This document shows positions 7,098-25,970 of a stretch of 64,000 nucleotides of DNA, one piece after another. How positions within the stretch are numbered: position 1 is the stretch's first letter; each line of letters starts with the position of its first letter. Location of the stretch: UHGV virus genome UHGV-0174779, one strand, 5' to 3'. This DNA is from a virus. A program made the position numbers and the translations under genes. The notes under the pieces were generated by a model, which searched no databases, was not told the origin of the DNA, and was given only the letters and a program-made list of their open reading frames with translations.

Positions 7098-7535
7098 ACC
7101 TTTCCCCGTGCCTACTCCCCGTTATTCTTTCCCCGTGTATACTACCCAATACATTACCTACCCGTTTATTTAGTTCCCCTTTAAAGAGTGGATGAGAGGC
7201 TAGTCTTCCACTGTACCAATAGATTGAGGCGATATAATGCCCATGAGTAATAGTCACAAGCCCCCATAGTTTGAATGTAAATGATTCTAAATGTAATGAT
7301 TATGAGTGCAATAATGATGTATGTATTAATTAAGTGGATGATTGTATTTCTTTTAATAATTTCTTTTATTCCTTTCTTTTTTCAGCGTTCTGTTGGTCTT
7401 TTTCTTTTATGAGTTGATGATTATTTAAGTGGTATATTACTACCGCACTATCTAGCTACCTTTCCCCGTGGTCTGTCCTGCGGTTGTATGTCCCCGTCCT
7501 ATATAGATAGTAGAAATAGTTTACCCGTGGGCTTG
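7098..7535. repeat. cluster of CCCCGTG / CCCGT motifs flanking an AT-rich tract
   Basis: CTTTCCCCGTG occurs 3 times (about 7100, 7128, 7460) and about 10 CCCGT copies occur on one strand between 6740 and 7530; AT-rich stretch 7260-7440. Confidence 0.55.
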
Positions 7536-7594
7536 CTTTCCTTATCAGGTAGTGGTAAATTGAATCTATCGATTGAGTGGTTGGAGTAGTAGAG

Positions 7595-7762
7595 ATGATA
7601 ATCTTAGTAATGATGGTAATAGCTGTAGTGCTTCCTTTACTTGCTCTGATTGTTAGTGAAGTGGTTGAGTTGTTCACTGACAAAAGATTAGAAGTAGTTG
7701 ATAAACCAAGCAAGTTTGATGGTGCTCAGTTTAGTAGTAAGAAAGTTGAAATTAATTGTTGA
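7595..7762 (+). CDS. small membrane protein (55 aa)
   Basis: ATG with GGAG 8 nt upstream; hydrophobic N-terminal helix. Confidence 0.25.
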   Translation: MIILVMMVIAVVLPLLALIVSEVVELFTDKRLEVVDKPSKFDGAQFSSKKVEINC

Positions 7763-7787
7763 CATGTTAGGTAGTAAGAAATATATT
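7759..7787 (+). promoter_or_regulatory. sigma70-type promoter (TTGACA-17-TATATT)
   Basis: Consensus -35 and near-consensus -10 about 40 nt upstream of ATG 7829. Confidence 0.5.
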
Positions 7788-7828
7788 TATCTCATTGAAA
7801 CGAAGCATACCAACTAAAGGAATCAATC

Positions 7829-8308
7829 ATGAATAAGGCAAACTTTGTAATCGGTGCTCTGGTATTAACCTTCGGTAGCATGGCTATCGCTGACAAGATT
7901 GCTAGTGCTCCAGTTGCTCAAGCTGCTGTAGTCATGAGTGATGCTGCTGACACCTTCGTTAGCAACGCCCCTAAAGGTTGGCTGGTTTGTAAAGGATTGG
8001 ATTCAGATAATGTCACTACGTTGATGAAAGTTAAATTATCTAACGTAACCAATCGTGGCATGGTATTGTCTACTCGTACACTTGACAACCAGAATAATGA
8101 GGATATTCTGCTTTCCCGTAAAGACAATGACCCAGAGTTGATTACTTTTGGCGATGTGCAGACTATTAAAGGTTCTAAAGTTGTGACTAATCTGGTAACA
8201 TATGGCACAATGCAAGAAACCATGTTAGCCACCTCTGTCTACAGTGGGGAAGATAACAGTATTTGGACTTTCCGCTTTCAGATGGGTGATTGTGTTAAAG
8301 CAAAATAA
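7829..8308 (+). CDS. secreted protein with signal peptide (159 aa)
   Basis: N-terminal signal peptide (MNKANFVIGALVLTFGSMAIA); own promoter and leader. Confidence 0.6.
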   Translation: MNKANFVIGALVLTFGSMAIADKIASAPVAQAAVVMSDAADTFVSNAPKGWLVCKGLDSDNVTTLMKVKLSNVTNRGMVLSTRTLDNQNNEDILLSRKDNDPELITFGDVQTIKGSKVVTNLVTYGTMQETMLATSVYSGEDNSIWTFRFQMGDCVKAK

Positions 8309-8311
8309 TAG

Positions 8312-8340
8312 TTGACACGGTTATAGATTGGCAGTATTGT
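8312..8340 (+). promoter_or_regulatory. sigma70-type promoter (TTGACA-17-TATTGT)
   Basis: Leader downstream is homologous to that of gene 7829 (ACTAAAGGAATCAA). Confidence 0.45.
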
Positions 8341-8375
8341 TACCTCATTAAGACAACACTAAAGGAATCAAGACA

Positions 8376-8705
8376 ATGAAAACTCTGATTGCATCTGCTC
8401 TTTTATCTGTAGCTGTTCTCTCAACTGTAGGATGCTCTTCTTCTCCGCGTCCCAATGGTTGGTGTGCTCTGGAAGTTGAGGGCACTTGTGTGATGCGTTG
8501 GAAAGATGGTGTTAAGGTTCCTGCTGGTGAGATTGATATGAAGTACGAAGGTGCTAGTTGCTCTAATGGTGGATCTGTTGATGAGAAGGCCTATCGTGAG
8601 CGTGATATGAAAACACAAGCTGATTGGAAGAAGTCAGACTTTATTTCCCGAGCAACTCATTGCGGTGGCAACACTTCCACTAAGGGTAAAGAATGGGACA
8701 TTTAA
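8376..8705 (+). CDS. lipoprotein (109 aa), paralog of 16350-16646
   Basis: Signal peptide with lipobox (LSTVGC); shares RPxGWCA..VEGxCV.RW..G.KVP.GEIDM...GA.CSN motif with ORF 16350-16646. Confidence 0.65.
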   Translation: MKTLIASALLSVAVLSTVGCSSSPRPNGWCALEVEGTCVMRWKDGVKVPAGEIDMKYEGASCSNGGSVDEKAYRERDMKTQADWKKSDFISRATHCGGNTSTKGKEWDI

Positions 8706-8811
8706 AAAGAAGGGTTTGTAATACCAGTTCTACTTTGTTATCTTTGATTTTCACGGTGATTGCTACTGCAATTGCTTACTATTTCTTAATTGTTTTGGGA
8801 GTGTGATACCA

Positions 8812-9075
8812 ATGGGTAATGAAACTATTGCGCTGATTGATACGCATAATTACGGTGGCGTTACGCTCTCCTTTGATGAGTCAATCGACTATGCTTATTT
8901 GTCTTTTCTTACGAAAGGTGAGATAAAAACCATTAGCTTTCCTGCGGTCTATTTAGTGCAAGATTATCTCACTATTGGGAAGTATTTAGCTCAACGTGGG
9001 ATTCTTCTATCGCTGGAAGAAGTGGAACAGATCAGTATAGCATTTTTTGTCGAGGGTAGTAATGAAGAAGAGTGA
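8812..9075 (+). CDS. hypothetical protein (87 aa, C-terminus EGSNEEE)
   Basis: ATG with GGAGTG RBS. Confidence 0.4.
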   Translation: MGNETIALIDTHNYGGVTLSFDESIDYAYLSFLTKGEIKTISFPAVYLVQDYLTIGKYLAQRGILLSLEEVEQISIAFFVEGSNEEE

Positions 9076-9169
9076 TTATTTTTGGCGGTGCTTATTCGTT
9101 GTTACAGTGGCGTTATTTGTCTCTGATATGCTTTATTCTTACGTTTTATAACTATAGGTGACTATTATC

Positions 9170-9535
9170 ATGGGTGTTATCAAGTTTGTAGTGAAAGTGA
9201 TTGTAGGCTTCTTTCTGGTTGTTCTTCTGTTAGGTGTCCTGCTGTCGTCTATTGGTAGTGTAAAGGCTGCAACGTTCACGCCTGATACTATCGAAGGCTT
9301 GCAATGCACCTATCTTATAGAAGATTATGAAACTGGTAAAAAGTCACCTAAGGTTATTATTTTACATGTAGAAGATTTTGAGAGTGTCATAACCTACGAC
9401 AAGTCTATCCACATGACTAACGAAACCACTGGTAAGCAAATTACGGTCGATCACTTGCTGCGCTCGTCGTTGACGCTCTTTGATGAATCTATGAACGAAA
9501 TAAAATCCGGTAATGGTCAGTGTGTAAATCCATAG
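9170..9535 (+). CDS. membrane protein (121 aa)
   Basis: N-terminal TM helix; RBS AGGTGA. Confidence 0.5.
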   Translation: MGVIKFVVKVIVGFFLVVLLLGVLLSSIGSVKAATFTPDTIEGLQCTYLIEDYETGKKSPKVIILHVEDFESVITYDKSIHMTNETTGKQITVDHLLRSSLTLFDESMNEIKSGNGQCVNP

Positions 9536-9611
9536 GCTTAATCTTTCTGCTGTATTGTGCCGTGGTCATGCCTATGGTCATAATTTATCTGATTCTCTAA
9601 TCCTTCCTGTG

Positions 9612-9635
9612 AGCCTCCTAGTGAGGCTTTTCTCA
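9612..9635 (+). terminator. rho-independent terminator (AGCCTC-CTAGT-GAGGCT-TTTTC)
   Basis: Perfect 6-bp stem plus T-run after gene 9170-9535. Confidence 0.45.
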
Positions 9636-9894
9636 TTTCTAAGGCGATTGTATGCCTTACCCTCTTTTAGCTCGTTGTGATGCGTCTGAGAGCGTCAAAT
9701 ATTGCTTTACAAGCCTGTTCTAGTGTGTTATTCGCGTGCGCGTTCCTTTATATCTCTCCTCCCTGAAAATAATCAAAATAAAGGTTGCTTTCCTTCCTCA
9801 CTTCCTCTATTATCTATTCATCGGTTAAGCAGTACCAAGTAGACAACCTGATAAGTCGTACGAAAAACAGGTAATCGATAAGAAATAAAAAAGA

Positions 9895-9922
9895 TTGACA
9901 AGATGCTCAAACGTAGTAAGAT
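9895..9922 (+). promoter_or_regulatory. strong sigma70-type early promoter P1 (TTGACA-16-TAAGAT) with A-rich UP element
   Basis: Read from sequence; A-rich tract immediately upstream. Confidence 0.55.
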
Positions 9923-10041
9923 GGGTATCAGAAACAAAGCAAGGAAACTTGCAAATGCTCTTTAAAAACTTATCGTCCTGCCCTTTCGCAAAGATTCGCG
10001 CGAGATAAGGGAAAAGAATAAAAAGAGGACGATAAAAAGAG

Positions 10042-10069
10042 TTGACAAGGTAATCTAATAAGTTATAAT
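10042..10069 (+). promoter_or_regulatory. strong sigma70-type early promoter P2 (TTGACA-16-TATAAT)
   Basis: Perfect consensus hexamers, A-rich UP element. Confidence 0.7.
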
Positions 10070-10217
10070 GATTACCAGTTAGCAGATACACCGCTAACAA
10101 GTTCTTTAACAATATGACCTGATTCACTAGCCGAGCCGCTTAGTAATCCTCAATCAAATATAGCTGATTGATATATCCTCCCAATAAAGGGAACGACGAA
10201 AAAGATTAAAAAGATGG

Positions 10218-10246
10218 TTGACAGGCGCTGAGAGATAGGTCATAAT
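10218..10246 (+). promoter_or_regulatory. strong sigma70-type early promoter P3 (TTGACA-17-CATAAT)
   Basis: Consensus -35, 17-bp spacer, near-consensus -10, A-rich UP element. Confidence 0.65.
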
Positions 10247-11169
10247 GAGCACATTAGCTAAGGGAAACATTCCGAAGCGAAGCGAGACAACGGCTAACAG
10301 TTGCATAGCGTGAGTAAACATGCTGATAGATTTACCGCTCTTTAACAATTTAAACGTTCTTCTATATCGGTTGAACATGCTTGAAGATAATAACCATCGG
10401 AAAGTATGCCAGATAAAACGGTGTAAGATTCTCTAAACTATCAGAGGAAACAATCTTGCAATCCCTTACTGGAAACGTCACCACTGACAAACGGATTCAC
10501 TGAGTGCACGCAGAGACTTAAGCTAATCGCCCACGGTTAAGGGTAGCGGCGGTCATCGCTAACAAGGCGCTACAGTGAAAGAAGTTAATCAGGGTAGACA
10601 AGTCCGACGAATACAAGCTCAATTGCGAGCGGCGGGGAGCGGTTAAAAAGTGGCAAATTGCTATTTAACAATAAGGCTTAGTGTGAACGTTTACGATGTG
10701 AACGGCTTGAGATTCATCTTATGATGAAAGTACATAGTCGGTTTATGTAGTAAACTTGCCGAAAGATATAAAACGTCGGAACATTAGACGGTCAATGACT
10801 CTTTCGCAATAGTATCCCGTAGTGGGCGATGACTAGCGATTGAGAGTTGATACAAAAGGATAGGCGAGAGCGAAAACAAAGTAGACGATATTGCCGACGG
10901 TTACAATAAATGTAACTAATTAGAGTCGGACGCACTGCCTTATTGTGATGATTGATCATCGCTATCAGGTCGGCTTAGTTTATAGCGACTAATTAAAGAT
11001 ACCAGATGAAACATCACGGATAAGGAGGCGGAAAGGTTAACTCCTGATAAGACCGCCTCACTTACCTGTAACTACTTAAAAAGTGAGTGGTTAGAGTTAA
11101 GTTAATAGTGACTTAAGCAAGCTCATAGAGAGCGGGGCATAGTGCCCTTACAATTGAAAGGTGAATATC

Positions 11170-12069
11170 ATGGCTAAAATCTTTACTCTGGTTAACGAAT
11201 CTGGTTTTAACGCTCTGGCTAACAACATCCGCAGCAACAACGCAGCGATTAAGCAAGACGTATCTAACTTCCTGTTAGGGCACTTACAGCACTTCCGCAG
11301 CAACGGTAAGAAACTGGACGTATTACAAGCGGCGGTTGATTTCCTGTTAACTGAACGCTTCCGCGATATGGATGTTATTGCTACCGCAATCACTTTCTTA
11401 ACCCCTATCAAGTTTAACACCGATGCGGCAAATGGTCGTAAAAAGTGGATTAATCTGGAAGGTGAAGCGAAAGCTAAAGAAGATGCGAAAGAAGCGCAGA
11501 TTAAAACCAAAATGGAGCAAAACCGCGCTCGCTGGTCAAACGCTTTCGAAAACTTTGCTTTAGGTCGTGCAATTGAAGTTGATAATCCTAACTTCTACAA
11601 AGGCTGTAACGACAACGTGGCGGCACACCTGCAAATCCCGGCGAAAAACAAGGAAGATTTTAACCAAGATATTTACGCTTTGGTTGAACGCTTGAACGCA
11701 ATCCGCATTGAAGCCAAGTTGCTGGCTGATGAACGCAACGGCGCAACTAGTGATAACACTATTGCCTTAAGTGAAGAAGTTGGGAAGGTTAAGAAGTCTT
11801 TCGACTCACTCATCAAGAAAGTAACGGCCTCAACTGTAGCGATCTCTGATGACTATCTGATGAACGCATCAAGCAAGGAACTGGAATCACTTGATTCATA
11901 TGCTGATGAAATGGAAAAGGCTGTTGCAGCTATGCAGGAGAAGTTAGAAAGTCTGCGCGGTCGTATCTCTTCAACGGTTGCTACCCGTACCGAACAAGCT
12001 GCGAAAGAAGAAGAGGAAGAAGTATTGCGTAAAGCGGCTGAAATTATGGCAGCACGTCAGGCAGCATAA
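11170..12069 (+). CDS. early protein of unknown function (299 aa)
   Basis: First long ORF downstream of tandem promoters; RBS GAAAGG; followed by strong terminator. Confidence 0.7.
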   Translation: MAKIFTLVNESGFNALANNIRSNNAAIKQDVSNFLLGHLQHFRSNGKKLDVLQAAVDFLLTERFRDMDVIATAITFLTPIKFNTDAANGRKKWINLEGEAKAKEDAKEAQIKTKMEQNRARWSNAFENFALGRAIEVDNPNFYKGCNDNVAAHLQIPAKNKEDFNQDIYALVERLNAIRIEAKLLADERNGATSDNTIALSEEVGKVKKSFDSLIKKVTASTVAISDDYLMNASSKELESLDSYADEMEKAVAAMQEKLESLRGRISSTVATRTEQAAKEEEEEVLRKAAEIMAARQAA

Positions 12070-12092
12070 GTAAGACAATTTGAATAAACATG

Positions 12093-12127
12093 AGGCGCTA
12101 TCTTAACGGGTAGCGCCTTTTCTTTTA
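12093..12127 (+). terminator. rho-independent terminator (8-bp stem AGGCGCTA/TAGCGCCT plus TTTCTTTTAT)
   Basis: Read from sequence. Confidence 0.6.
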
Positions 12128-12171
12128 TCAGTGCATTGATTCAGTGTGCTAATAAAAGAATCTAATCAAAG

Positions 12172-12399
12172 GTGACGATTATGTTAACTACGCATACCAC
12201 GATCTACAGAAACCTTCGCAACGGTCAGCATTACCGCCTATCTAAAAAGTATGGCGTTGAATGTAAATGTATACTTACTGGTGAATGGTATCCGTCTCCA
12301 ATGAAGATTGAGACGTTAGAACATGAAGCGATTAGTTATACCATCACGCAAGAAACAACGTTAGGCCGTGTGCTACGTAAGTTAGGATTGAGAAAATGA
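12172..12399 (+). CDS. hypothetical protein (75 aa)
   Basis: ORF with GGTGA RBS. Confidence 0.4.
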   Translation: MTIMLTTHTTIYRNLRNGQHYRLSKKYGVECKCILTGEWYPSPMKIETLEHEAISYTITQETTLGRVLRKLGLRK

Positions 12400-12620
12400 T
12401 CATTAGTGAAGGCTTTGGTAAATGTCCTATTTGTAAGAAACATCGCAGCACCGGAAACCATCGCAAATGTAGTAGGATTCTCCAGAAACGCCATAACCAT
12501 GAAGAAGCAAAGAAGGTTTACGAAAACCAACGCTTAGAAGAGGTTAGAGCAATGGCAATTAAAGCATCATACAAACACTCCCACCGCATTGAATATATGA
12601 AAAGGTATCAAGCATCATGA
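12396..12620 (+). CDS. small Cys/His-rich protein (74 aa)
   Basis: CPICKK...H..H motif; overlapping stop/start with neighbours. Confidence 0.4.
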   Translation: MIISEGFGKCPICKKHRSTGNHRKCSRILQKRHNHEEAKKVYENQRLEEVRAMAIKASYKHSHRIEYMKRYQAS

Positions 12621-12823
12621 TTAACATTAAACCTCTTAGCAAGACCCCTATCGCCCTTCTTGGCCGTCGTGTTTCATACCGATACTTAAATAAAGGTAAG
12701 GCAATGACAGGAGTAGTTGCAACGATTAGTACACAAGGAAAGAAATTTCTCAACATGTCCGTTAAGATGGATGATGGTACAGTTTTAACACGTAGTTGGA
12801 AGTCGTTCGGTTTACTCAATTAA
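12617..12823 (+). CDS. hypothetical protein (68 aa)
   Basis: ORF, ATGA overlap with upstream gene. Confidence 0.4.
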   Translation: MINIKPLSKTPIALLGRRVSYRYLNKGKAMTGVVATISTQGKKFLNMSVKMDDGTVLTRSWKSFGLLN

Positions 12824-12892
12824 GTTGTTTGTTCAAGCCTATCGCCTTGATGGGCTTGCCCGATATAACTTATCACTGAAAGGAATAAGATT

Positions 12893-13336
12893 GTGGCTAA
12901 ATCAAAAATCAGCATGAAGGGCGGTCGTTGTTTTGCTATCTCTGAATTAGAGAAAGAGAAACCAAAGGCAACCAATCACGTCAGTAAGCGTAGTTTAAAA
13001 CGTCGTGCTGCAAAGGCTGAGGCTGAATCCCATACTCCTTCCAGTGTGGCAAAACGTGTAGGCCATCGTGTTCATCGTGCTGATGCGTTATTGTTAGCCG
13101 ATCATAAACGTTCTTTATTACAGAGCGGGGGAGCTAAAACAGAAGAGGAGAAGAAGTTAGAAATCTTCTGTAATGGTCGCACCCGTGGTAAGCAGAAGTT
13201 TAAGGGTAGCACGAAAGACCCTCAAGCATTCCCTAAGACAAGCCAGTGCGCACCTGATGTTTTCTACGCAGATAGTAAACACAAGTGGGGAGTTGAAAAA
13301 TACATTGACCCCATCAAAGAGGCAAGGGTTAAATAG
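12893..13336 (+). CDS. basic protein of unknown function (147 aa, GTG start)
   Basis: ORF with AAAGGA RBS; K/R-rich. Confidence 0.45.
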   Translation: MAKSKISMKGGRCFAISELEKEKPKATNHVSKRSLKRRAAKAEAESHTPSSVAKRVGHRVHRADALLLADHKRSLLQSGGAKTEEEKKLEIFCNGRTRGKQKFKGSTKDPQAFPKTSQCAPDVFYADSKHKWGVEKYIDPIKEARVK

Positions 13337-13416
13337 TAGGACTATAGCCCCCTCTTTTAGTACTATGACGCTCTCTCTGTCGCGTAGTGCCCTCTCCCCA
13401 TTTGAAGCTTCCGCAT

Positions 13417-13439
13417 AGCCGCCTTTGAGCGGCTTTTTG
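13417..13439 (+). terminator. rho-independent terminator (AGCCGC-CTTTGA-GCGGCT-TTTTT)
   Basis: Read from sequence. Confidence 0.55.
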
Positions 13440-13501
13440 CGTTGCTGTAAGTGCATTTGCGAGTGTATTTATAGCAACGGTCATGTGTTGCTTTCAGGTT
13501 T

Positions 13502-13528
13502 GCCCCGGCTACGGCTGGGGCTTTTTTG
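13502..13528 (+). terminator. rho-independent terminator (GCCCC..GGGGC-TTTTTT)
   Basis: GC-rich hairpin plus T6. Confidence 0.5.
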
Positions 13529-13576
13529 TACCCGTAGAATAGGAGGTAGCAAGTTCTGATAACAACGGCCCAGCTA

Positions 13577-13966
13577 ATGTTGACATTGACTATTTATTAT
13601 GAGGCAGGGAATCAGCCAACCGCATGTAAAGCTATGGTTGCGGATACCGTGATAAATAGAATGGCCCAACGAAAACTGACCGCTGAACAGGTGATAAGAC
13701 AAAAGAACCAGTTTGAGTGGATTCCGGTACTATTAAAACAGGAGAAACCTTATAAACGTTATGTAAAGCTGATTCGTGATAAAAATCCGATGACTAAGCA
13801 AGCCATTGGAGAAAGCGAGCGGCTAGCTAAACGTGCCCTTAAGAAGAATTATGTTCCGCTGTACAGTGGGACTTACTTTCAGAGTAAGAGCGAAGGGGTG
13901 CCAAAATGGTATGCCAATCCTATGTATTGTGGTGATTTAGTGTTCGATAACAGCTCTAGGGAATAA
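13577..13966 (+). CDS. SleB/CwlJ-family cell-wall hydrolase-like protein
   Basis: IYYEAGNQP...VINR motif resembles the Hydrolase_2 (SleB) signature AEARGEP..VA.V.LNR; no signal peptide evident. Confidence 0.45.
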   Translation: MLTLTIYYEAGNQPTACKAMVADTVINRMAQRKLTAEQVIRQKNQFEWIPVLLKQEKPYKRYVKLIRDKNPMTKQAIGESERLAKRALKKNYVPLYSGTYFQSKSEGVPKWYANPMYCGDLVFDNSSRE

Positions 13967-14164
13967 TCACTGGTGCCAGATTTGACAAACTAAATTCCTT
14001 TATAAACCAACCACTTAGTAAATTTATTGAAAAAGATGGTAGTATTCTGGGACTATGGTAATGCTCTGTATATAGACCCTTTGAAAATTTCTTAGAAAAT
14101 AAGTTTACTAAATATAACTTACTTAAATAATATTACTTTTAATCTCTGATAAAGGGTAAATAAT

Positions 14165-14467
14165 ATGACTTTAGAGATATATAAATTCCTTTTTGTAAGC
14201 TGTTTAACTATCAGCGTTATAGGATTTATTGTTCTAAGAAACAAAGCAGCAAGCTGGGAGAGAAAGTATAAATCTTTGATTCAAGTAGATGAGATGTATA
14301 ATGAGAAAGTTAAAGTAACACTCAACGATCTTATTATGCAAGTAGAGGACAGAAACAAGCGTCTTCAGAATCTTAACCATGAAGTATTACGCCTTGCTCG
14401 TGCTAATGAAGACTTGCGAGTAGCTATTGCTAAGCAGCAGGAGCTCTCTGACGAGCTTAAAGTATAA
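14165..14467 (+). CDS. membrane-anchored coiled-coil protein (100 aa)
   Basis: N-terminal TM helix then heptad-like region. Confidence 0.45.
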   Translation: MTLEIYKFLFVSCLTISVIGFIVLRNKAASWERKYKSLIQVDEMYNEKVKVTLNDLIMQVEDRNKRLQNLNHEVLRLARANEDLRVAIAKQQELSDELKV

Positions 14468-14778
14468 AAAACTAAGTAACATCAACCTATAGCCCTTGTG
14501 TTTATCAGAGGGCTATGTGAGGGTGTTCCTCATTAACTTATTAATTCAGGCATATGCCACACCGCTAGGGAGAGCTTGCTCAAACATCCGGTGCTAGACT
14601 AAAACCTGTTAATTTTCGATATACTTTCTGATATGTAGGGGTACATATTGGTTTGGGATTTAGGAGACTCTCTAGGGGTAGGGAGTCTTCACTAGTTTGT
14701 AGAGTAATTGGCTCTATAGTGAGAGTCATCCGCTATATCAACTGGCAATAATGCCTCCACTAATAGAGAGAGATAGGT

Positions 14779-14919
14779 ATGAAAGTATCAACCAAACGTA
14801 TGAACCGCCCTGAACGTATGGATGCAGTAGCTAATGGTGCTCTGAAACTGGAAGGCTTCTGGCTTCATGCAATGTCAGCCATCCGTAACAAGCAAGGCAA
14901 TTGGACCTATAACAGTTAA
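14779..14919 (+). CDS. small protein (46 aa)
   Basis: ATG with GAGATAGGT RBS; below track size cutoff; followed by terminator. Confidence 0.3.
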   Translation: MKVSTKRMNRPERMDAVANGALKLEGFWLHAMSAIRNKQGNWTYNS

Positions 14920-14928
14920 TAAATAAAA

Positions 14929-14957
14929 GGCTGCCTTCGGGTGGCCTTTGTTGTTTT
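14929..14957 (+). terminator. hairpin with UUCG loop plus T-rich run
   Basis: GGCTGCC-TTCG-GGTGGCC then TTTGTTGTTT. Confidence 0.4.
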
Positions 14958-15001
14958 AATTAAGGGACAGCTCTTACTTAAACTAACAAGAGGAAGCTAA
15001 A

Positions 15002-15178
15002 ATGTCTAAGCAAACAATCAAGAATACGCAAGCTGGTTACTCTTATGTTAACTCTCCTTGCTGTGGTGCTCGTGTTAATCTGGTTAAGGAAGAGGTTCAT
15101 ATCATTCAGCGTGGCGCTACTGTTGTTCGTTCATGCTGTGTCTGTGGTAATGACATTTTTATCAAAGGTAAAGTATGA
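15002..15178 (+). CDS. small zinc-ribbon-like protein (58 aa)
   Basis: CCGAR...CCVCG cysteine pairs; RBS GAGGAAG; stop overlaps next start. Confidence 0.35.
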   Translation: MSKQTIKNTQAGYSYVNSPCCGARVNLVKEEVHIIQRGATVVRSCCVCGNDIFIKGKV

Positions 15179-15447
15179 AAAAGCTTATAATCCTAGTGTG
15201 TCTTATCTCTGCATTTGGCTGTAAGGAAAGGGAGAGTATCTACAAAAGTGACTATGAAAGTTCTGGGTTTTGGTACGGAGGTTTCAGGTCAGAGCCACAT
15301 ACAGCAGATAATATGCTATTCTCCGTAAAAAGAAGCTCACAAGAACTTTCTTACTATGCATGTGCCTCTTTAGCTGAAGCTCATACCAAAACATATCCGG
15401 ACGGTGGTAGAATATATTGTCTATATCTAGGAAAATGGGAAAACTAA
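15175..15447 (+). CDS. lipoprotein (90 aa)
   Basis: Signal peptide with lipobox (ISAFGC). Confidence 0.45.
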   Translation: MKKLIILVCLISAFGCKERESIYKSDYESSGFWYGGFRSEPHTADNMLFSVKRSSQELSYYACASLAEAHTKTYPDGGRIYCLYLGKWEN

Positions 15448-15449
15448 TC

Positions 15450-15701
15450 ATGAAAAACTTCCAAGCTGCACCAATAACTAAAGTGATCGCAGTTAATGAT
15501 GTGATGATGACTGTTCCTCTGAACACTCGTCACATTGCGATTGATAAGATGGGCTATGTGTGGGCTTGGAAGATTAAGCCCTCGTACAATGAACTCTTTG
15601 ATGAGTTTGTTTGTACTGGCACATATAGCCCTACGTTCTTGGGTTTGTTTGGAGAGTTTGAAGGTCAGTATAAAATCATCACTCTCCCTGCTTGTGCTTG
15701 A
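15450..15701 (+). CDS. hypothetical protein (83 aa)
   Basis: ATG just after upstream stop. Confidence 0.4.
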   Translation: MKNFQAAPITKVIAVNDVMMTVPLNTRHIAIDKMGYVWAWKIKPSYNELFDEFVCTGTYSPTFLGLFGEFEGQYKIITLPACA

Positions 15702-15710
15702 GGATTAACG

Positions 15711-15812
15711 AGAGCTCTTAGTGAGGGTGTATCTTCCCCGCCTTCTAAGCGGTCGTTAAAGAAGTAAATGGAGTATGCAGGTTCGAGTCCTGTCACCCTC
15801 GCTAAGAGCTCT
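15711..15812 (+). other. long hairpin (about 18-bp stem) enclosing a tRNA-like T-arm (GGTTCGAGTCC); possible RNase III site or degenerate tRNA-like element
   Basis: AGAGCTCTTAGTGAGGGTG pairs with CACCCTCGCTAAGAGCTCT; internal GCAGG-TTCGAGT-CCTGT resembles a T stem-loop; a UCU anticodon-like loop (CCGC-CTTCTAA-GCGG) is present but I could not fit a canonical cloverleaf. Confidence 0.3.
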
Positions 15813-15821
15813 TGAGGTATT

Positions 15822-16337
15822 ATGAAGCTAGATCTAAGTAAAGCAGTTGTTGATAAAGGTGTTGGTTATTTGTATGTGTACCAACCAACACACCCTATGG
15901 CCAATAAAGCTGGAAAGGTGTATGTTCATAGATATGTTGCTCAAAATTTCTACGGTGTCGAACTGAACTCTGACCTAGTGGTTCATCACAAGGATGAGAA
16001 TAAGTTAAACAACGAACCATCTAATTTAGAAATCATGACTTATGAGGAGCATAGCAGGCACCATCATGGGGCTGTCATGGAAGAAAGGTTATGTTCTTTT
16101 TGTGGAGAGATTTACCTTGTTTCAGAGAATAGCAACCAAAGGTTTTGCTCACAGCTTTGTGCCAAATTAGATAGCAGACGGTTTGAAATAACAAAAGAAT
16201 CTCTTCAGTCTTTAATAGACATTTACCCCGTGTATGTAGTAGGGAGGTTACTGAGTGTTAGTGATTCGGCTGTCCATAAGAGATGTAGGATTCTTGGTGT
16301 TGTTAAAAAGCCGAAAGGTTTTTGGTTAACTAAATAG
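15822..16337 (+). CDS. HNH endonuclease
   Basis: HNH motif (VVHHKDENKLNNEPSNLEIMTYEEH). Confidence 0.6.
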   Translation: MKLDLSKAVVDKGVGYLYVYQPTHPMANKAGKVYVHRYVAQNFYGVELNSDLVVHHKDENKLNNEPSNLEIMTYEEHSRHHHGAVMEERLCSFCGEIYLVSENSNQRFCSQLCAKLDSRRFEITKESLQSLIDIYPVYVVGRLLSVSDSAVHKRCRILGVVKKPKGFWLTK

Positions 16338-16349
16338 AATGAGGTAGTT

Positions 16350-16646
16350 ATGAGTTGGGGTGGTGTAATATCCTTAATCTGTATCTTCCTTGTCTGTGTG
16401 GTCCTTACAGGCTGCGTACAGAGCCGTCCTGATGGATGGTGTGCAGTAGCAGTGGAAGGTGTTTGTGTTTCTCGCTGGCATAAGGGTGAGAAGGTTCCTT
16501 CTGGTGAAATTGATATGCGCTGGAACGGAGCAACCTGCTCTAATGCTAACCCGTCTATCAACGAAGAGAAATCTACGCCAGACAATGTTGTGATTGACAC
16601 AGCGTTGTGGTGTGGTGGCTCAGTAAAAACAACCGGTAAGGAGTGA
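16350..16646 (+). CDS. lipoprotein (98 aa), paralog of 8376-8705
   Basis: Lipobox (LTGC) and shared motifs with 8376-8705. Confidence 0.6.
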   Translation: MSWGGVISLICIFLVCVVLTGCVQSRPDGWCAVAVEGVCVSRWHKGEKVPSGEIDMRWNGATCSNANPSINEEKSTPDNVVIDTALWCGGSVKTTGKE

Positions 16647-16650
16647 TAAT

Positions 16651-16893
16651 ATGACAGCTCATTATTGGAACACAAAGAAGCTTCTTGAAGAGATGGCTGG
16701 AAGTAGCAGAGTACAGCTAATATCTATGCTTCGAAGGGATGCTCGCTCTTTACGCTTCCAAGTAAAGATTGGTAACTTCAGTGATGGTCTTTATTACACA
16801 TTGAAGGAAAGGATTAAGAAGACATACTTCATTATATATGGTTGCCCTAAGGGCGATTTTACTTATGACTTTTGGAATACTGACTACGATTAA
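16651..16893 (+). CDS. hypothetical protein (80 aa)
   Basis: ORF, tight spacing. Confidence 0.4.
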   Translation: MTAHYWNTKKLLEEMAGSSRVQLISMLRRDARSLRFQVKIGNFSDGLYYTLKERIKKTYFIIYGCPKGDFTYDFWNTDYD

Positions 16894-16902
16894 GGAGTTA
16901 TT

Positions 16903-17124
16903 ATGTTGTTAGAAGCTGAGCAATCATTGCCAGTAGTCCCTCTGTCCTCACTTCCTATCGGAAGTGCTTTTAGACATGGGGAGGTTTTTTGGATTAAGGG
17001 TAATCAAGTGGTTGGAGGGTATATCACCTGCATCAACATTGGCAACGGTGTTGTTGATGGTTTTCGTCCAGCCGCTGAAGTCACTCCTCAAGCTGATGCA
17101 AAGGTTGTAGGTTTAGTTTATTAG
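16903..17124 (+). CDS. hypothetical protein (73 aa)
   Basis: ORF with GGAG RBS. Confidence 0.4.
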   Translation: MLLEAEQSLPVVPLSSLPIGSAFRHGEVFWIKGNQVVGGYITCINIGNGVVDGFRPAAEVTPQADAKVVGLVY

Positions 17125-17441
17125 AGAGTTACCATGATCAAATCGTGACTATCGTGAAGGATTCTTACGAGAGTCCTTTGAGATAGGACTTCAGATCTCC
17201 TATCAAACTAACATTCACGTAACTAGCCCATAAGGGGCGTTACCCTTTAATAACCCAGCCCACTAAGGGGGGCGGGAGTTTAGTGCTGGATTAGCATAAC
17301 GCTTATTCCTACAAAGGCAACCGATTGTTAGATCTTACATGCAAACTTAATTAATAGGATATGGGAGGATTCGTCCCCTCCCCCTATTTTATTGAATCTT
17401 TATCTAAGCAAGTCTTATATAAATGTTTAATAGGAGGTTAT

Positions 17442-17753
17442 ATGAAACCCGCACAAATCCAATGGACTCCTTGGCAGATTGATTTGCTGAAGAAGCTTAT
17501 CAGTGAACATTCTGTTGAAGAAACGGCTGTCATGATGGGAACAACAGCACAGATTATTAATGCTGCGTGTTCTCGTTTTAAAATCTCTCGTGCTAAAGCT
17601 CGATTGAAGTGGTCTGAAGAAGAAGATCAGTTTGTTATCCGTAATGCCGGGTTCATGTCTATTCAGAGAATGGCTGACATGCTCGGTAGAAGTTATGCTG
17701 CTGTACAGAACAGGGCATGTATGCACCTTAATATTAGCCTCAAACTTAAATAG
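17442..17753 (+). CDS. tandem Myb/SANT-like helix-turn-helix DNA-binding protein (103 aa)
   Basis: Two W-containing HTH-like repeats (WTPWQIDLL..., WSEEEDQFV...); strong RBS TAGGAGG. Confidence 0.45.
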   Translation: MKPAQIQWTPWQIDLLKKLISEHSVEETAVMMGTTAQIINAACSRFKISRAKARLKWSEEEDQFVIRNAGFMSIQRMADMLGRSYAAVQNRACMHLNISLKLK

Positions 17754-17761
17754 GAATCAAT

Positions 17762-18007
17762 GTGAAGATCATTCCCAAGATTAAAGATAATACTGTTTCC
17801 TTGTCTACTATCATTCCCGGAAACCCATTCGTAATTCAACGTGGCTCAGCATCTCCTCAATATTACATGAGAGTTGAAAACACTTCTAGCAATATTAGTG
17901 TAGTTAACGGTTGGATTACTGTGGTAAATCTTCTCACAGGGGTCTTATGTGCTAAAGGTGCTGATACTCAGGTGGAAATGATTCGCATGTCAGTGGTTCA
18001 GGAGTAG
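17762..18007 (+). CDS. hypothetical protein (81 aa, GTG start)
   Basis: ORF only. Confidence 0.35.
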   Translation: MKIIPKIKDNTVSLSTIIPGNPFVIQRGSASPQYYMRVENTSSNISVVNGWITVVNLLTGVLCAKGADTQVEMIRMSVVQE

Positions 18008-18158
18008 CGTAATTATTCGGTTCGTAAACGGACAGAAAAAGGTAGCTAAATAAGCCCTCTTCTCTCCTCCTTTTAGTACTATGACGCCTCTTTTTAGGCG
18101 GCCCAATTTGCGTAGGGAATTCCCTCTACGCAGCCATAATTTTTAAGGAATTTCCCCT

Positions 18159-18392
18159 ATGTCTAAAGTAAGTGCAATTGATGCAATCCGTCAACCGTTC
18201 CAGTTCCAATCCAAATCAACCCAAACCTTCAGCGAATCTAAGCAAATTCGCTTGGGTGGCACAGAGAAAACTGTGTTCGATCTGGCTAAAAACAAGAGCG
18301 TTACCGTAGTTGATGGTGGCACTCTGGTTAACGTTTCTCATCGCATCCGCACTGGCAAAACTGCCAAAGACCGTACCAAGAAAGGTGAGTAA
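18159..18392 (+). CDS. hypothetical protein (77 aa)
   Basis: ORF only. Confidence 0.45.
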   Translation: MSKVSAIDAIRQPFQFQSKSTQTFSESKQIRLGGTEKTVFDLAKNKSVTVVDGGTLVNVSHRIRTGKTAKDRTKKGE

Positions 18393-18574
18393 CACCTATA
18401 GCCTTCTTCGGAGGGCTATGTGAGTTATTCTGACTCAACTAACCTAATCTTAATATATTTCCCGTATGGGGCCGATGCTAGGGCGAGGAGTATTCCTCAA
18501 ACATCCGTCGGATAGATATTTTAAGAGCAGGTTATCCACAGATATTGGGTAATATCTTTTTGTGTTTAAAGCTT

Positions 18575-18600
18575 GACTCTTTTCGGAGAGTCCTTTTTTA
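18575..18600 (+). terminator. rho-independent terminator (GACTCT-TTTCGG-AGAGTC-CTTTTTT)
   Basis: Perfect stem plus T-run. Confidence 0.55.
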
Positions 18601-18618
18601 AATTCAAAGAGAGGAAAT

Positions 18619-18771
18619 ATGTCTAAATTAGATTTAAAACTGCTAGCAGCAGCGGTAGTGATTTGTGCACTAGCACTGGTAACGCAGAGAACATCTGGAT
18701 TTATTCAGTGTTTCTTTTCTGGGCAATCCACTTATCAGTGGATTATTGACGAGTGTAAACAACAGGAGTAA
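18619..18771 (+). CDS. small membrane protein (50 aa)
   Basis: ATG with GAGAGGAAAT RBS; hydrophobic helix. Confidence 0.3.
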   Translation: MSKLDLKLLAAAVVICALALVTQRTSGFIQCFFSGQSTYQWIIDECKQQE

Positions 18772-18773
18772 GC

Positions 18774-19136
18774 ATGAATACACGTCCCATTAAGGGCAAC
18801 GTTAATATTGAAACTCTGAACAAGGTTGCATCAAACCTCGGTGGTATGTCCAACGAAGAACTTGAGCAAGAGCTTGCTTGGATTGCAAATGGTATTACGG
18901 TAGCGAAAAGTAAGATTGCTCGTGAGCAAAGTAATATGAAAGCTCACAAGTATGTTATACGTCGCGCAAACACGTTACCAGAGCGGGTTGTACATCTTGC
19001 CCGCCAGAACTACGAAAGTGCTAAAGAAGCTCTGCTTGAAGCTGAGTTTCAGAAGCACCAATTTATGAACAACTACAGAAACTTCCGAGATATTCTTTAT
19101 ATCCGTAAGTCAATTGAGTTGATTAAAAACCAATAG
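18774..19136 (+). CDS. hypothetical protein (120 aa)
   Basis: RBS AGGAG. Confidence 0.5.
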   Translation: MNTRPIKGNVNIETLNKVASNLGGMSNEELEQELAWIANGITVAKSKIAREQSNMKAHKYVIRRANTLPERVVHLARQNYESAKEALLEAEFQKHQFMNNYRNFRDILYIRKSIELIKNQ

Positions 19137-19147
19137 AGGTTGGTACA

Positions 19148-20347
19148 ATGTTTCCAGTAACATTAGAAGATACTGAAGGTAATGTTTTAACGGTTTATCC
19201 TCCTTGCTATGGATTCCTTCAGCTCCGCAACTATAACGGTGGTGCTGATGAAGGTGATGATGGCAAATACGATGAATATTTTGAACCTAACACCTATGAG
19301 GCAACTCGTGGGTGGAATATGCACGTTAAGGTTTGGAGCGAAGCATCTAATATTCGTAGTGCAGATGGGCAAGACTGCCTGTTAAGTGACGAGATGGATA
19401 TGTGCGATATTAAACATATCTGGAACTCTGGAACCCACTTAGATATGTTAGGTTTTCTGAGTTATCGTGACAAAAAGCCTGTAACCAAAGGGTTGGGTTG
19501 GGGTAATATTGATCAGGAAGGTGAGCTTAAAAATAACATTGAACGTTGGAATGACAAAAACCCTGAGTATCAAACCACACCTCGTGCTGTACTGGAAGCT
19601 ATGGAAGCATTTGTGGACAAAGACCGTCCCTCCTGTTTACGCTGGCACGAAAAAGGTTTTATGGGTGTAGCAACTGAGAATGTCCATGCTGACCGTTGTC
19701 TGTTCTATTTGATGTTAGACCGAACCTTCTATTGTGAAGATGAAGAGAGTCAGGTTGAAACCTTCCTTCATAAATGGTTGGTTGAAGGCTGGACAATCCT
19801 TCAGGCCTATGTTTACTCACGAATGGTTAGCACTTACACTAACCTCTTAGGAGAAACAAAAACAACTCTGGTTGGTAATGATTGGGATGCTTGTATCTTC
19901 CCAGCATCACTGTTTACAGTTGGTATGGCTGATAAGTATACTGAAGCATTTAAAGTGCCTTGGCGTCAGCAGTCGTACAATCATGGTTGTGGTCACTTCC
20001 GTGATGAAGATTTTAAATGGATTAGTTATGAAAATAACGAAACATCAGATTTACGAGTTAATAACTCAATGTTCTTGCCGGTGATGCACCCCGATTTAGT
20101 AAAGAGTGGATCAGAAACACTTGAATGTGACAACCTTCTGGTTAACTTTGTTCGTCGGGTATCTAAAGGTGAAAGAACAGCTGACAAATTACTCTACGGT
20201 AATCGTATCGAGACTAAGGATATGTTCAACATCTATAACATTATTCAGCGATTTAGTAGTGGAACTCTGGACCAAAGTTCGGAGTATTCAGTGGTTCCAT
20301 CCTCTGAATGGGATGGTATTATGAGCGGATTATTTTTAGGAAAATAA
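19148..20347 (+). CDS. protein of unknown function (399 aa), first gene of amidoligase cluster
   Basis: RBS AGAGGT; tightly linked to cluster. Confidence 0.65.
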   Translation: MFPVTLEDTEGNVLTVYPPCYGFLQLRNYNGGADEGDDGKYDEYFEPNTYEATRGWNMHVKVWSEASNIRSADGQDCLLSDEMDMCDIKHIWNSGTHLDMLGFLSYRDKKPVTKGLGWGNIDQEGELKNNIERWNDKNPEYQTTPRAVLEAMEAFVDKDRPSCLRWHEKGFMGVATENVHADRCLFYLMLDRTFYCEDEESQVETFLHKWLVEGWTILQAYVYSRMVSTYTNLLGETKTTLVGNDWDACIFPASLFTVGMADKYTEAFKVPWRQQSYNHGCGHFRDEDFKWISYENNETSDLRVNNSMFLPVMHPDLVKSGSETLECDNLLVNFVRRVSKGERTADKLLYGNRIETKDMFNIYNIIQRFSSGTLDQSSEYSVVPSSEWDGIMSGLFLGK

Positions 20348-20357
20348 AAGGTTAGTT

Positions 20358-22128: not shown

Positions 22129-22137
22129 GAGGTTATC

Positions 22138-23855: not shown

Positions 23856-23934
23856 TCAATGGGTGCCTCTGATAAAGGGGCACAATTTAAAGGTTAATTA
23901 GATGAAAGGGTTTACCCTTCAGGTGGATTAGAAA

Positions 23935-25965: not shown

Positions 25966-25970
25966 ATCAG

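What the first reader, a model, noticed from the sequence alone, without database searches (positions are those of the whole stretch)
9895..11160. Three tandem consensus sigma70 promoters followed by about 900 nt without ORFs
P1-P3 (9895, 10042, 10218) each have TTGACA and near-consensus -10 boxes with A-rich upstream elements, resembling T7 A1-A3. Downstream, 10260-11160 contains no ORF longer than a few codons on the plus strand before the first early gene at 11170. The strongly transcribed leader may be a non-coding RNA, a processing substrate or a host-factor sponge.
Basis: seen in the sequence. Interest (0 to 1): 0.55.

Follow-up and report, generated by a model that had tools for sequence, protein, structure and literature searches.

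The report
rRNA-style promoters driving structured phage RNA
In this phiEco32-like coliphage, three strong host-type promoters are each followed by the same "boxA" anti-termination signal that E. coli uses on its ribosomal RNA operons. They feed into a conserved, non-coding, elaborately folded RNA of about 0.9 kb that matches no known RNA family.

Summary
The window is a phiEco32-like (Kuravirus) coliphage. The three sigma70 promoters lie at 9895, 10042 and 10218, and 10253-11169 is non-coding (no codon periodicity, frequent 1-2-nt indels, no conserved ORF). The promoters and the gene-free spacer were already noted for phiEco32 and SU10.

Two findings appear in no paper I could search:
- **boxA after every promoter.** A perfect match to the functional gamma-proteobacterial boxA consensus GYTCTTTAANA lies 25-84 nt after each predicted start (9957, 10101, 10337). 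The third shares 16 nt with the E. coli rrnB leader. Sixteen related genomes keep 3-6 such modules; their flanks differ but the core is constant.
- **A real structured RNA.** In 16 genomes, 243 predicted pairs are 98.9% paired. Seventy-one pairs show compensatory double changes (34 in shuffles, 5-11 in slid controls). MFE z-score is -8, and G·U pairs place the structure on the + strand. Rfam gives no match.

Best reading: an rRNA-operon-like unit bounded by terminators (promoters, boxA, structured RNA, gene 124). Nus factors would make RNA polymerase Rho-resistant and aid folding. What the RNA does is unknown. Nothing was tested experimentally.

The parts
9611..9629 (+). Intrinsic-terminator-like hairpin that closes the preceding early unit (promoter 7759, ORFs 7829-9535)
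   Evidence: Terminator scan; SU7 record annotates a terminator at the equivalent place
9871..9922 (+). Promoter P1: A-rich UP-like tract, TTGACA (9895-9900), 16-nt spacer, TAAGAT (9917-9922)
9939..9952 (+). Hairpin GCAAG-GAAA-CTTGC in the P1 transcript, 4 nt before boxA-1 (boxB-like position)
   Evidence: Read; RNAfold of the upstream context
9957..9967 (+). boxA-1, GCTCTTTAAAA; exact match to GYTCTTTAANA, about 28 nt after the predicted P1 start
10018..10069 (+). Promoter P2: A-rich UP-like tract, TTGACA (10042-10047), 16-nt spacer, TATAAT (10064-10069); 12/12 match
10078..10098 (+). Hairpin GTTAGC-9 nt-GCTAAC in the P2 transcript, 2 nt before boxA-2
   Evidence: Read
10101..10111 (+). boxA-2, GTTCTTTAACA; exact consensus match, about 25 nt after the predicted P2 start
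10194..10246 (+). Promoter P3: A-rich UP-like tract, TTGACA (10218-10223), 17-nt spacer, CATAAT (10241-10246). Found at about -950 from the gene-124 ATG in 13 of 15 relatives by a strict pattern
10288..10324 (+). Two 5' hairpins of the P3 transcript. h1 is 10288-10303. h2 is 10307-10324 (boxB-like; 3 of its 6 pairs show compensatory changes, one with four pair types)
10337..10348 (+). boxA-3, GCTCTTTAACAA. Together with its 3' flank it shares 16 nt (GCTCTTTAACAATTTA) with the E. coli rrnB leader. It sits in the most conserved 30-nt block of the leader (87% invariant)
10349..10647 (+). Domain I of the structured RNA, closed by helix 10349-10362 / 10634-10647. It contains the long irregular helix stack 10477-10599
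10648..10671 (+). Hairpin 10648-10666 overlapping a degenerate boxA-like word, GCTATTTAACAA (10660-10671). The word fails the consensus (C4 is A) and is base-paired, so it is probably structural and not a NusB/E site
10668..10946 (+). Domain II of the structured RNA, closed by the 10-bp helix 10668-10677 / 10937-10946. In inner helix 10755-10760 / 10863-10868 all six pairs covary
   Evidence: covariance model R1 scores 144.9 bits on 10753-10870
10526..10534 (+). 5' arm (AUCGCCCAC) of a candidate inter-domain helix or pseudoknot with 10822-10830
   Evidence: 100% paired in 16 genomes, 2 pairs with compensatory changes
10822..10830 (+). 3' arm (GUGGGCGAU) of the candidate inter-domain helix
10947..11148 (+). 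3' series of eight hairpins (10947-10960, 10968-10990, 11002-11019, 11025-11059, 11066-11096, 11098-11115, 11121-11133, 11134-11148). Four of the eight have compensatory changes. No T-tract terminator follows
11156..11166 (+). Shine-Dalgarno region of gene 124 (AAAGGTGAAT). It is predicted to pair with 10330-10340, just 5' of and overlapping boxA-3. This helix is tentative: it has no covariation and is broken in TH34
   Evidence: helix 3
11170..12069 (+). Homologue of phiEco32 gene 124 (299 aa, mostly helical, function unknown). It always follows the RNA and is confined to the same 98 phage records
12092..12119 (+). Strong intrinsic terminator (12-bp stem, then TTCTTTTAT) that closes the unit. 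Present in all 16 genomes, with variation in the loop

Best explanation
The region is a self-contained early transcription unit built like a ribosomal RNA operon and bounded by intrinsic terminators (9611-9629 and 12092-12119). Three tandem strong sigma70 promoters with A-rich UP-like tracts fire on host RNA polymerase. Within the first 25-84 nt of each transcript, usually just after a small hairpin, the RNA presents an rrn-type boxA. Inferred step: boxA recruits host NusB-NusE(S10), which with NusA, NusG, SuhB and S4 converts the polymerase into the fast, Rho-resistant, RNA-chaperoning form used on rrn operons. That lets it transcribe about 0.9 kb of untranslated RNA, helps the long-range helices form, and carries on into gene 124 and possibly past downstream terminators. 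Shown steps: the 10253-11169 transcript is non-coding and folds into a conserved two-domain structure plus a 3' hairpin series, on the + strand. Inferred step: this RNA is itself a functional product, either as the 5' part of the gene-124 mRNA or released by processing. Its size, its conserved junctions and loops, and its strict pairing with gene 124 suggest it binds protein(s) or acts as a scaffold, and is not merely a stabilising leader. What it does biochemically is not known.
For: - **Identity:** 98 phiEco32-like phage records match at 75-93%. The region is the roughly 1.9-kb gene-free spacer between phiEco32 genes 125 and 124.
- **boxA statistics:** GCTCTTTAACAA with at most 1 mismatch gives 7 hits against 0.57 expected; 4 are on the + strand in 9957-10671. 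The published functional consensus GYTCTTTAANA (PMC5725501) has 4 exact hits in 64 kb, and three lie directly after P1, P2 and P3.
- **Match to the host signal:** 16-nt identity to the rrnB leader, which has the same hairpin-then-boxA layout.
- **boxA in relatives:** 16 genomes carry 3-6 consensus boxAs interleaved with promoters, in 59 distinct sequence contexts with a constant core. The translated early unit driven from 7759 has none.
- **Non-coding yet constrained:**
- **Structure:** 243 pairs, 98.9% of cells paired (shuffles 93.2%, 0/500). Seventy-one pairs have double changes (shuffles 34.0 +/- 3.4, 0/500; slid controls 5-11), and covariation is 0.250 against 0.130. MFE z-score is -8.0.
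- **Strand:** 391 G·U cells; 98.9% paired on the + strand against 89.2% if read on the - strand.
- **Unit boundaries:** the terminator after gene 124 is conserved.
- **Need for read-through:** terminator-like hairpins in the early operon number 30 against 12.5 expected, and no strong sigma70 promoter appears before 19913.
Against: - Nothing was measured. No transcript ends, no Nus-factor binding and no Rho sensitivity were tested.
- The leader is G>C (C 18%, G 24%) and heavily paired, so it may be a poor Rho substrate even without boxA.
- One boxA downstream of P3 would serve all three promoters, so one per promoter is not explained by anti-termination alone.
- The boxB-like hairpin is only modestly enriched: 24/50 contexts against 180/600 random positions. 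No GU-rich boxC is visible after boxA-3.
- rrn-type complexes are best established against Rho, so read-through of the intrinsic terminators is uncertain.
- All sequences come from one narrow clade (75-93% identity), so covariation events are not independent.
- I could not read the two primary phiEco32 papers (Savalia 2008, Pavlova 2012). They may already mention the spacer or boxA.
Confidence: 0.65

Rival explanations
1. Nus-factor decoy. The main job of the multiple boxA copies on very abundant early transcripts is to titrate NusB/NusE(/SuhB) away from the host's seven rrn operons. That would collapse host rRNA synthesis and ribosome assembly. Anti-termination of the phage RNA would be secondary.
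For: There are 3-6 consensus boxAs per genome, one behind every promoter, where one would do for anti-termination. A transcript started at P1 carries three copies. The promoters are near-consensus with UP-like tracts. From established knowledge (Friedman et al. 1990, recalled, not checked here), transcribed boxA copies can compete for NusB.
Against: Untested. It does not explain the 0.9 kb of conserved structure. phiEco32 already shuts off host sigma70 transcription with gp79 (PMC12276001). Modules could simply have duplicated as promoter+boxA units.
Confidence: 0.15
2. Cis-regulatory 5' UTR. The whole structure exists to control or stabilise the gene-124 message, for example by sequestering its Shine-Dalgarno sequence in the long-range helix 10330-10340 / 11156-11166. 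NusB/E binding at the overlapping boxA-3 would act as the switch.
For: The RNA and gene 124 always occur together, between two terminators. No terminator separates them. The predicted outer helix covers the AAAGGTGA ribosome-binding site. There is precedent for boxA/NusB-E affecting translation near an RBS, at suhB (PMC5725501, PMC12360218).
Against: The outer helix has no covariation and loses 4 of its 9 pairs in TH34. Thirty-eight helices in two closed domains are far more than known translational operators need. Constraint extends along the whole 900 nt.
Confidence: 0.2
3. Replication element. The structured transcript primes or activates an origin, in the manner of ColE1 RNA II or the T7 primary origin. 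The conserved structure would be needed for R-loop formation.
For: It is a long gene-free conserved region behind strong promoters. G-rich runs are present, GGGTAGCGGCGG and GCGGCGGGG. The origin of these phages is not defined in any paper I could read.
Against: There are no iterons or AT-rich unwinding block. The repeat search found only short words. No skew analysis was done. Transcription runs on into a translated gene.
Confidence: 0.08
4. The boxA-like words are DNA operators for a phage or host DNA-binding protein (a roadblock or repressor just downstream of each promoter), not RNA signals.
For: A repeated 11-12-bp word sits at a fixed short distance downstream of each promoter.
Against: The word is not palindromic and is always on the transcribed sense strand. 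It matches the host RNA signal over 11-16 nt, including its flank. Variation is confined to position 10, the N of the RNA consensus.
Confidence: 0.05
5. The stretch encodes small proteins, or it is neutral spacer whose apparent structure is an artefact of relatedness.
For: Automatic annotation of some relatives places 30-66-codon ORFs there, for example CHD5UKE1 gp119-127, SU7 gp104 and NJ01_006.
Against: There is no codon periodicity, frameshifting indels are frequent, and start codons are not conserved. The called ORFs differ in place and strand between records. Slid controls, which keep the relatedness of the sequences, give 5-11 double-change pairs against 71.
Confidence: 0.03

Closest known systems
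E. coli rrn operon control region (tandem P1/P2 promoters with UP element; boxB-boxA-boxC leader; NusA/B/E/G-SuhB-S4 anti-termination complex)
   Same: Both have tandem strong sigma70 promoters with A-rich upstream tracts and a hairpin followed by boxA near the 5' end. The boxA is identical (16 nt shared with rrnB). Both are followed by a long, untranslated, highly structured RNA with long-range helices.
   Different: This one is encoded by a virulent phage and has one boxA per promoter instead of one for both. No boxC is recognisable. The RNA is 0.9 kb, unrelated to rRNA (no Rfam hit), and is followed by a protein gene on the same transcript.
boxA leaders of CRISPR arrays and the suhB 5' UTR (PMC7665894, PMC5725501)
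   Same: A stand-alone rrn-type boxA is used outside rRNA on an untranslated or poorly translated transcript, with no phage N protein.
   Different: Those are host chromosomal loci with a single boxA. Here there are 3-6 copies in a lytic phage's immediate-early unit.
Lambda nutL/nutR (boxA-boxB plus N protein)
   Same: A phage early transcript uses boxA and host Nus factors for processive anti-termination.
   Different: In lambda the order is boxA then boxB, the boxA is the weaker CGCTCTTA form, and the phage N protein is needed. Here the order is hairpin then boxA, the boxA is the full rrn form, and the signal sits on the very first transcripts, before any phage protein exists.
T7 A1-A2-A3 early promoter cluster
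   Same: Three tandem strong host-polymerase promoters stand at the head of the early region of a virulent podophage.
   Different: As I recall T7 (not checked here), its leader to gene 0.3 is short and is not a 0.9-kb conserved structured RNA. I know of no rrn-type boxA behind each T7 promoter.
Large ornate phage- or prophage-associated RNAs (GOLLD, ROOL; from memory of Weinberg et al. 2009 and 2017)
   Same: These are RNAs of several hundred nucleotides, multi-domain, supported by covariation, carried by phages, with unknown function.
   Different: There is no sequence or structure match. This RNA has a narrow host range (E. coli/Shigella Gordonclarkvirinae only). It sits in a defined early unit with boxA and is joined to an mRNA.

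Membership tests
rrn-type boxA / Nus-factor anti-termination signal | RNA word matching the functional gamma-proteobacterial boxA consensus GYTCTTTAANA | tested here: met
   Exact matches at 9957, 10101 and 10337. 10337 shares 16 nt with the rrnB leader. 10660 fails the consensus (C4 is A).
rrn-type boxA / Nus-factor anti-termination signal | On the sense strand, promoter-proximal in the transcript | tested here: met
   All three are on the + strand, 25-84 nt after the start predicted from the -10 box. Starts are predicted, not mapped.
rrn-type boxA / Nus-factor anti-termination signal | Precedes RNA that would otherwise be exposed to Rho (long and untranslated) | tested here: met
   About 917 nt with no coding signature. 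However, its composition is G>C.
rrn-type boxA / Nus-factor anti-termination signal | Binds NusB-NusE and recruits SuhB; read-through depends on nus genes | not testable with these tools
   Needs binding assays, ChIP or genetics.
rrn-type boxA / Nus-factor anti-termination signal | Accessory boxB hairpin upstream and GU-rich boxC downstream, as in rrn leaders | tested here: inconclusive
   A hairpin lies next to boxA in 24/50 contexts against 30% of random positions. The P3 hairpin h2 covaries. No UGUGUGGG-like boxC is visible after boxA-3.
Lambda-type nut site | boxA followed by a boxB hairpin that is bound by a phage N protein | tested here: not met
   The order here is hairpin then boxA. 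No search for an N homologue was made.
Sigma70 promoter with UP element (T7 A1-A3-like early promoters) | Near-consensus -35 and -10 hexamers at 16-18 nt spacing, with an A/T-rich tract at -40 to -60 | tested here: met
   10/12, 12/12 and 11/12 matches. Upstream 24 nt are 54-62% A. Reported as sigma70 promoters for SU10 and phiEco32 (PMC4281155).
Any described RNA family (Rfam 15: rRNA, RNase P, tmRNA, 6S, introns, GOLLD, ROOL, OLE, riboswitches, r-protein leaders) | Covariance-model match at or near the gathering score | tested here: not met
   No hit at E<=1 in 9000-12500. At E<=10 the best match is 19.3 bits against a 66-bit gathering score.
Structured non-coding RNA (generic) | Base pairs kept through compensatory changes beyond controls, strand-specific, with no coding signal | tested here: met
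Protein-coding gene(s) | Conserved ORF, third-position bias in substitutions, indels in multiples of three | tested here: not met

The most novel reading that the evidence does not exclude
The 10288-11148 transcript is a new class of large (about 0.9 kb) ornate phage RNA that acts in trans. It would be produced by a phage-borne copy of the host's rRNA transcription machinery signals (UP-promoters plus boxA) and folded with the help of the Nus-factor chaperone. It would then serve as a ribonucleoprotein scaffold or decoy in host take-over, possibly together with gp124. The multiple boxAs would at the same time drain Nus factors from host rrn operons.
Probability: 0.3. Interest if true: 0.85.

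Novelty: new variant of a known kind. Interest (0 to 1): 0.72.

Why it matters
Three reasons.

1. It would be a case of a virulent phage copying the host's rRNA-operon control logic (UP-type promoters plus full rrn boxA) for its immediate-early transcription, with no N-like protein. The 7-11 paper (PMC8948821) says the anti-termination strategy of that related phage 'remains to be defined'. Here there is a concrete, testable signal for the phiEco32 branch.

2. RNAs of about 900 nt with dozens of covariation-supported helices are rare. This one sits in a well-studied, easily grown coliphage group that includes phiEco32, SU10 and BASEL-collection phages, so genetics, probing and cryo-EM are immediately possible.

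3. Public annotations of several relatives carry spurious small genes over this RNA and should be corrected.

Tried and rejected
- **Known RNA families:** Rfam at gathering-like and permissive thresholds gave nothing. There are no tRNA or tmRNA genes in the window.
- **Coding test:** rejected small proteins on either strand.
- **Wider relatives of the RNA:** two conserved 22-25-nt patterns were scanned. IMG/VR gave 5 close relatives. Metagenomes gave 6 contigs at 82-93% identity. GTDB genomes gave one chance hit in Rheinheimera with no further similarity. So I found nothing outside the E. coli/Shigella Gordonclarkvirinae.
- **gp124:** no Pfam, NCBIfam or PDB relative. PHROG 13018 has unknown function. 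tblastn finds it only in the same 98 records. A single-sequence AlphaFold model was too poor to search with (pLDDT 49.8).
- **Homology to the Salmonella phage 7-11 leader:** some words looked similar by eye, but nhmmer and covariance model R1 with filters off found nothing. Rejected as undetectable.
- **Fourth boxA-like word at 10660:** first counted as a boxA, then set aside because it fails the functional consensus and is base-paired.
- **boxB hairpin enrichment:** only modest, so not claimed as a defining part.
- **Second copy of the RNA domain in the window:** none.
- **Literature:** the two primary phiEco32 papers are not held. Two literature searches were too generic and returned noise.
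Full report
**What the window is.** The 1.8 kb around the finding matches 98 phage records at 75-93% identity, all E. coli or Shigella phages of the phiEco32 group (Kuravirus, Suseptimavirus and Nieuwekanaalvirus; subfamily Gordonclarkvirinae). The finding lies in the long gene-free spacer between the homologues of phiEco32 genes 125 (window 9158-9535) and 124 (window 11170-12069). In phiEco32 itself that spacer is about 1.9 kb.

**Checking the observation.**
Each has an A-rich tract upstream, 54-62% A.
- Promoter-like scores as such are not enriched in the window: 14 sites against 15.6 simulated. Their credibility rests on three other things. They cluster within 324 nt. They recur in relatives. 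[quoted passage not shown] So the promoters and the gap are already known.
- The claim of 'no ORF longer than a few codons' is loose, since ORFs of 20-38 codons exist, but the conclusion is right.
- Across 16 genomes the stretch 10253-11169 shows no codon periodicity in its substitutions (137/131/123, p=0.68). The adjacent gene gives 77/48/236 (p=1e-37).
- The leader has 285 single-nucleotide gap runs against none in the gene. Its ORF starts are not conserved.

**First new element: boxA.** Reading the sequence, each promoter is followed by a word nearly identical to the E. coli rrn boxA.
- GCTCTTTAACAA with at most one mismatch occurs 7 times in the window against 0.57 expected. Four of these are on the + strand between 9957 and 10671.
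- The consensus derived from functional data for gamma-proteobacteria is GYTCTTTAANA (PMC5725501). It has four exact matches in 64 kb. Three are at 9957, 10101 and 10337, which is 28, 25 and 84 nt after the starts predicted for P1, P2 and P3. The fourth, at 3595, is antisense inside a minus-strand ORF and is consistent with chance.
- I fetched the E. coli K-12 rrnB leader. It reads hairpin, then 'ac', then TGCTCTTTAACAATTTATCAG. The phage's third copy reads ccGCTCTTTAACAATTTAaacg, so 16 nt are identical.
- The 15 related genomes I fetched, together with the window, carry 3-6 consensus copies each, interleaved with 2-4 TTGACA promoters. They occur in 59 distinct flanking contexts. Variation inside the word is almost confined to position 10, the 'N' of the consensus.
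- The 30-nt block around the third copy is the most conserved in the whole leader, 87% invariant.
- The other early promoter, at 7759, leads straight into translated ORFs and has no boxA.
- A fourth look-alike at 10660 (GCTATTTAACAA) fails the consensus at the critical C4 and is base-paired in the structure. I treat it as structural.
- A small hairpin often sits 1-5 nt before boxA, as in rrnB. The enrichment is modest: 24/50 against 180/600 random positions.

**Second new element: the leader is a conserved structured RNA.**
- Its identity to relatives equals or exceeds that of gene 124, for example 0.894 against 0.743 for SU7.
- Only 43% of its columns vary, against 79% of third codon positions next door.
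- RNAalifold on 16 genomes predicts 243 pairs in 38 helices.
- Counting those pairs gives 98.9% of cells paired (shuffles 93.2 +/- 0.2; 0/500 reach it). Seventy-one pairs have changes on both sides (shuffles 34.0 +/- 3.4; 0/500). With partners slid by 1-3 columns, a control that keeps the relatedness of the sequences, only 5-11 pairs do, and 34-46% of cells pair.
- The single sequence folds 8 standard deviations better than its shuffles.
- There are 391 G·U cells and nine near-invariant G·U pairs. The structure is therefore 98.9% paired as + strand RNA but only 89.2% on the other strand. This is the strand transcribed from P1-P3.

**Architecture, in window coordinates.**
- Two 5' hairpins (10288-10303 and 10307-10324), then boxA-3.
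- Domain I, closed by 10349-10362 / 10634-10647.
- A hairpin at 10648-10666.
- Domain II, closed by 10668-10677 / 10937-10946.
- Eight 3' hairpins running to 11148.
- A candidate 9-bp inter-domain helix, 10526-10534 / 10822-10830. It is paired in all 16 genomes and has two compensatory changes.
- A predicted outer helix joining the 5' flank of boxA-3 to the gene-124 Shine-Dalgarno region. It has no covariation and is broken in TH34, so it is tentative.

**What it is not.**
- Rfam has no match at E<=1 over 3.5 kb and only noise at E<=10.
- There are no tRNA or tmRNA genes in the window.
- The RNA was found only in this phage clade. IMG/VR gave 5 contigs, metagenomes 6, and GTDB genomes one chance hit.

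**The transcription unit.**
- No terminator separates the RNA from gene 124.
- A strong intrinsic terminator follows gene 124 at 12092-12119 and is conserved in all 16 genomes.
- Another terminator at 9611-9629 closes the unit upstream.
- The unit is therefore promoters/boxA, then RNA, then gene 124.
- gp124 has no recognisable family. It is confined to the same 98 records. It gave only a low-confidence, mostly helical model.
- Downstream, the early operon holds many terminator-like hairpins (30 against 12.5 expected) and no strong sigma70 promoter before 19913. Processive read-through from P1-P3 would be useful there.

**How it most likely works.**
- Shown: the promoters, the boxA words, the non-coding status and the RNA structure.
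- Inferred from established knowledge of rrn and lambda anti-termination (summarised in PMC12360218; the rrn complex structure is Huang et al. 2020, cited there): boxA in the nascent RNA recruits NusB-NusE. With NusA, NusG, SuhB and S4, this shields the polymerase from Rho, speeds it up, and holds the 5' RNA near the exit channel so that distal segments can anneal. That last property suits an RNA whose domains are closed by helices 270-290 nt apart.
- CRISPR arrays are a precedent for a stand-alone boxA protecting a long untranslated transcript (PMC7665894).
- What the RNA then does is unknown. Its complexity argues for a protein-binding, scaffold or decoy role, or an elaborate control of gene 124.

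**Caveats.**
- The leader is G>C and highly paired, so Rho might not load well anyway.
- One boxA per promoter is more than anti-termination needs. That keeps a Nus-factor decoy role open.
- The clade is narrow, so covariation events are not independent.
- I could not read Savalia 2008 or Pavlova 2012.

**Novelty.** No held paper mentions boxA together with phiEco32, Kuravirus or SU10. The Kuravirus papers I opened do not mention a non-coding RNA. A 2025 review of Rho termination lists boxA use only for rrn, lambdoid phages, hisG and suhB. I rate the promoters as already known. The boxA modules are a new instance of a known signal in a new setting. The RNA is a new family. Overall this is a new variant of a known kind.

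Noticed in passing
L034:4865-5917 (- strand) plus L033:1-129 (Salmonella phage 7-11, NC_015938): This distantly related phage also has about 1.15 kb with no annotated gene between its validated early sigma70 promoters and gp151. It has no boxA-like word (at most 2 mismatches allowed) and no similarity to the Kuravirus RNA detectable by nhmmer or by covariance model R1. Its MFE z-score is -2.8. A 237-column block is almost identical in 7-11, SE131 and pSal-SNUABM-01, while the flanks diverge strongly. It may be a second, independent long early leader RNA.
   Followed up: partly
L003:1881-3471; L002:2163-2363; L013:1324-1491; L015:1164-1364: Public records place small 'hypothetical protein' genes over the promoter/boxA zone and the structured RNA. 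In CHD5UKE1 there are nine to ten, on both strands, and NJ01_006 is labelled 'cathepsin L-like cysteine proteinase A'. They differ in place and strand between records and are probably false gene calls.
   Followed up: partly
window 9158-9535 (+): The 125-aa ORF upstream is labelled 'terminase' in phiEco32-like records and in PHROG 13168. It is far too small for a terminase and begins with a long hydrophobic stretch (MTIIMGVIKFVVKVIVGFFLVVLLLGVLL...). It looks like a small membrane protein with an inherited wrong name. Neighbouring small ORFs are likewise labelled 'polymerase' in the records.
   Followed up: no
window 12120-12170 (+): The sequence directly after the gene-124 terminator (GCATTGATTCAGTG..CTAATCAAAGAA) is conserved in all 16 genomes, even where the next gene differs. 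The SU7 record annotates a promoter there. It scores poorly as a sigma70 promoter in this window.
   Followed up: no
window 12000-30000 (+): Terminator-like hairpins are more than twice as frequent as in shuffles (30 against 12.5). Several strong ones lie on the coding strand inside the early operon (13417, 13502, 14926, 17363, 18108).
   Followed up: no
window 39474-39502 (+): A perfect 12/12 sigma70 consensus (TTGACA-17-TATAAT) lies deep in the + strand gene cluster. It is the only other 12/12 site in the window. It may correspond to the internal host-type promoter reported near the phage sigma-factor gene in phiEco32 and SU10.
   Followed up: no
window 10413-10430 / 10768-10785 and 10553-10569 / 10956-10972: Short direct repeats sit at similar positions in domain I, domain II and the 3' region of the RNA: ATAAAACG.. 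words about 355 nt apart and TCATCGCTA.. words about 403 nt apart. They hint at an ancient internal duplication or a repeated protein-binding word.
   Followed up: no
window 7257-7829: Gene orientation switches here, with minus-strand ORFs up to 7257 and plus-strand ORFs from 7829 behind the promoter at 7759. By comparison with phiEco32 coordinates, the window seems to run across the junction of the linear genome's ends, so the source record is probably circularly permuted.
   Followed up: no
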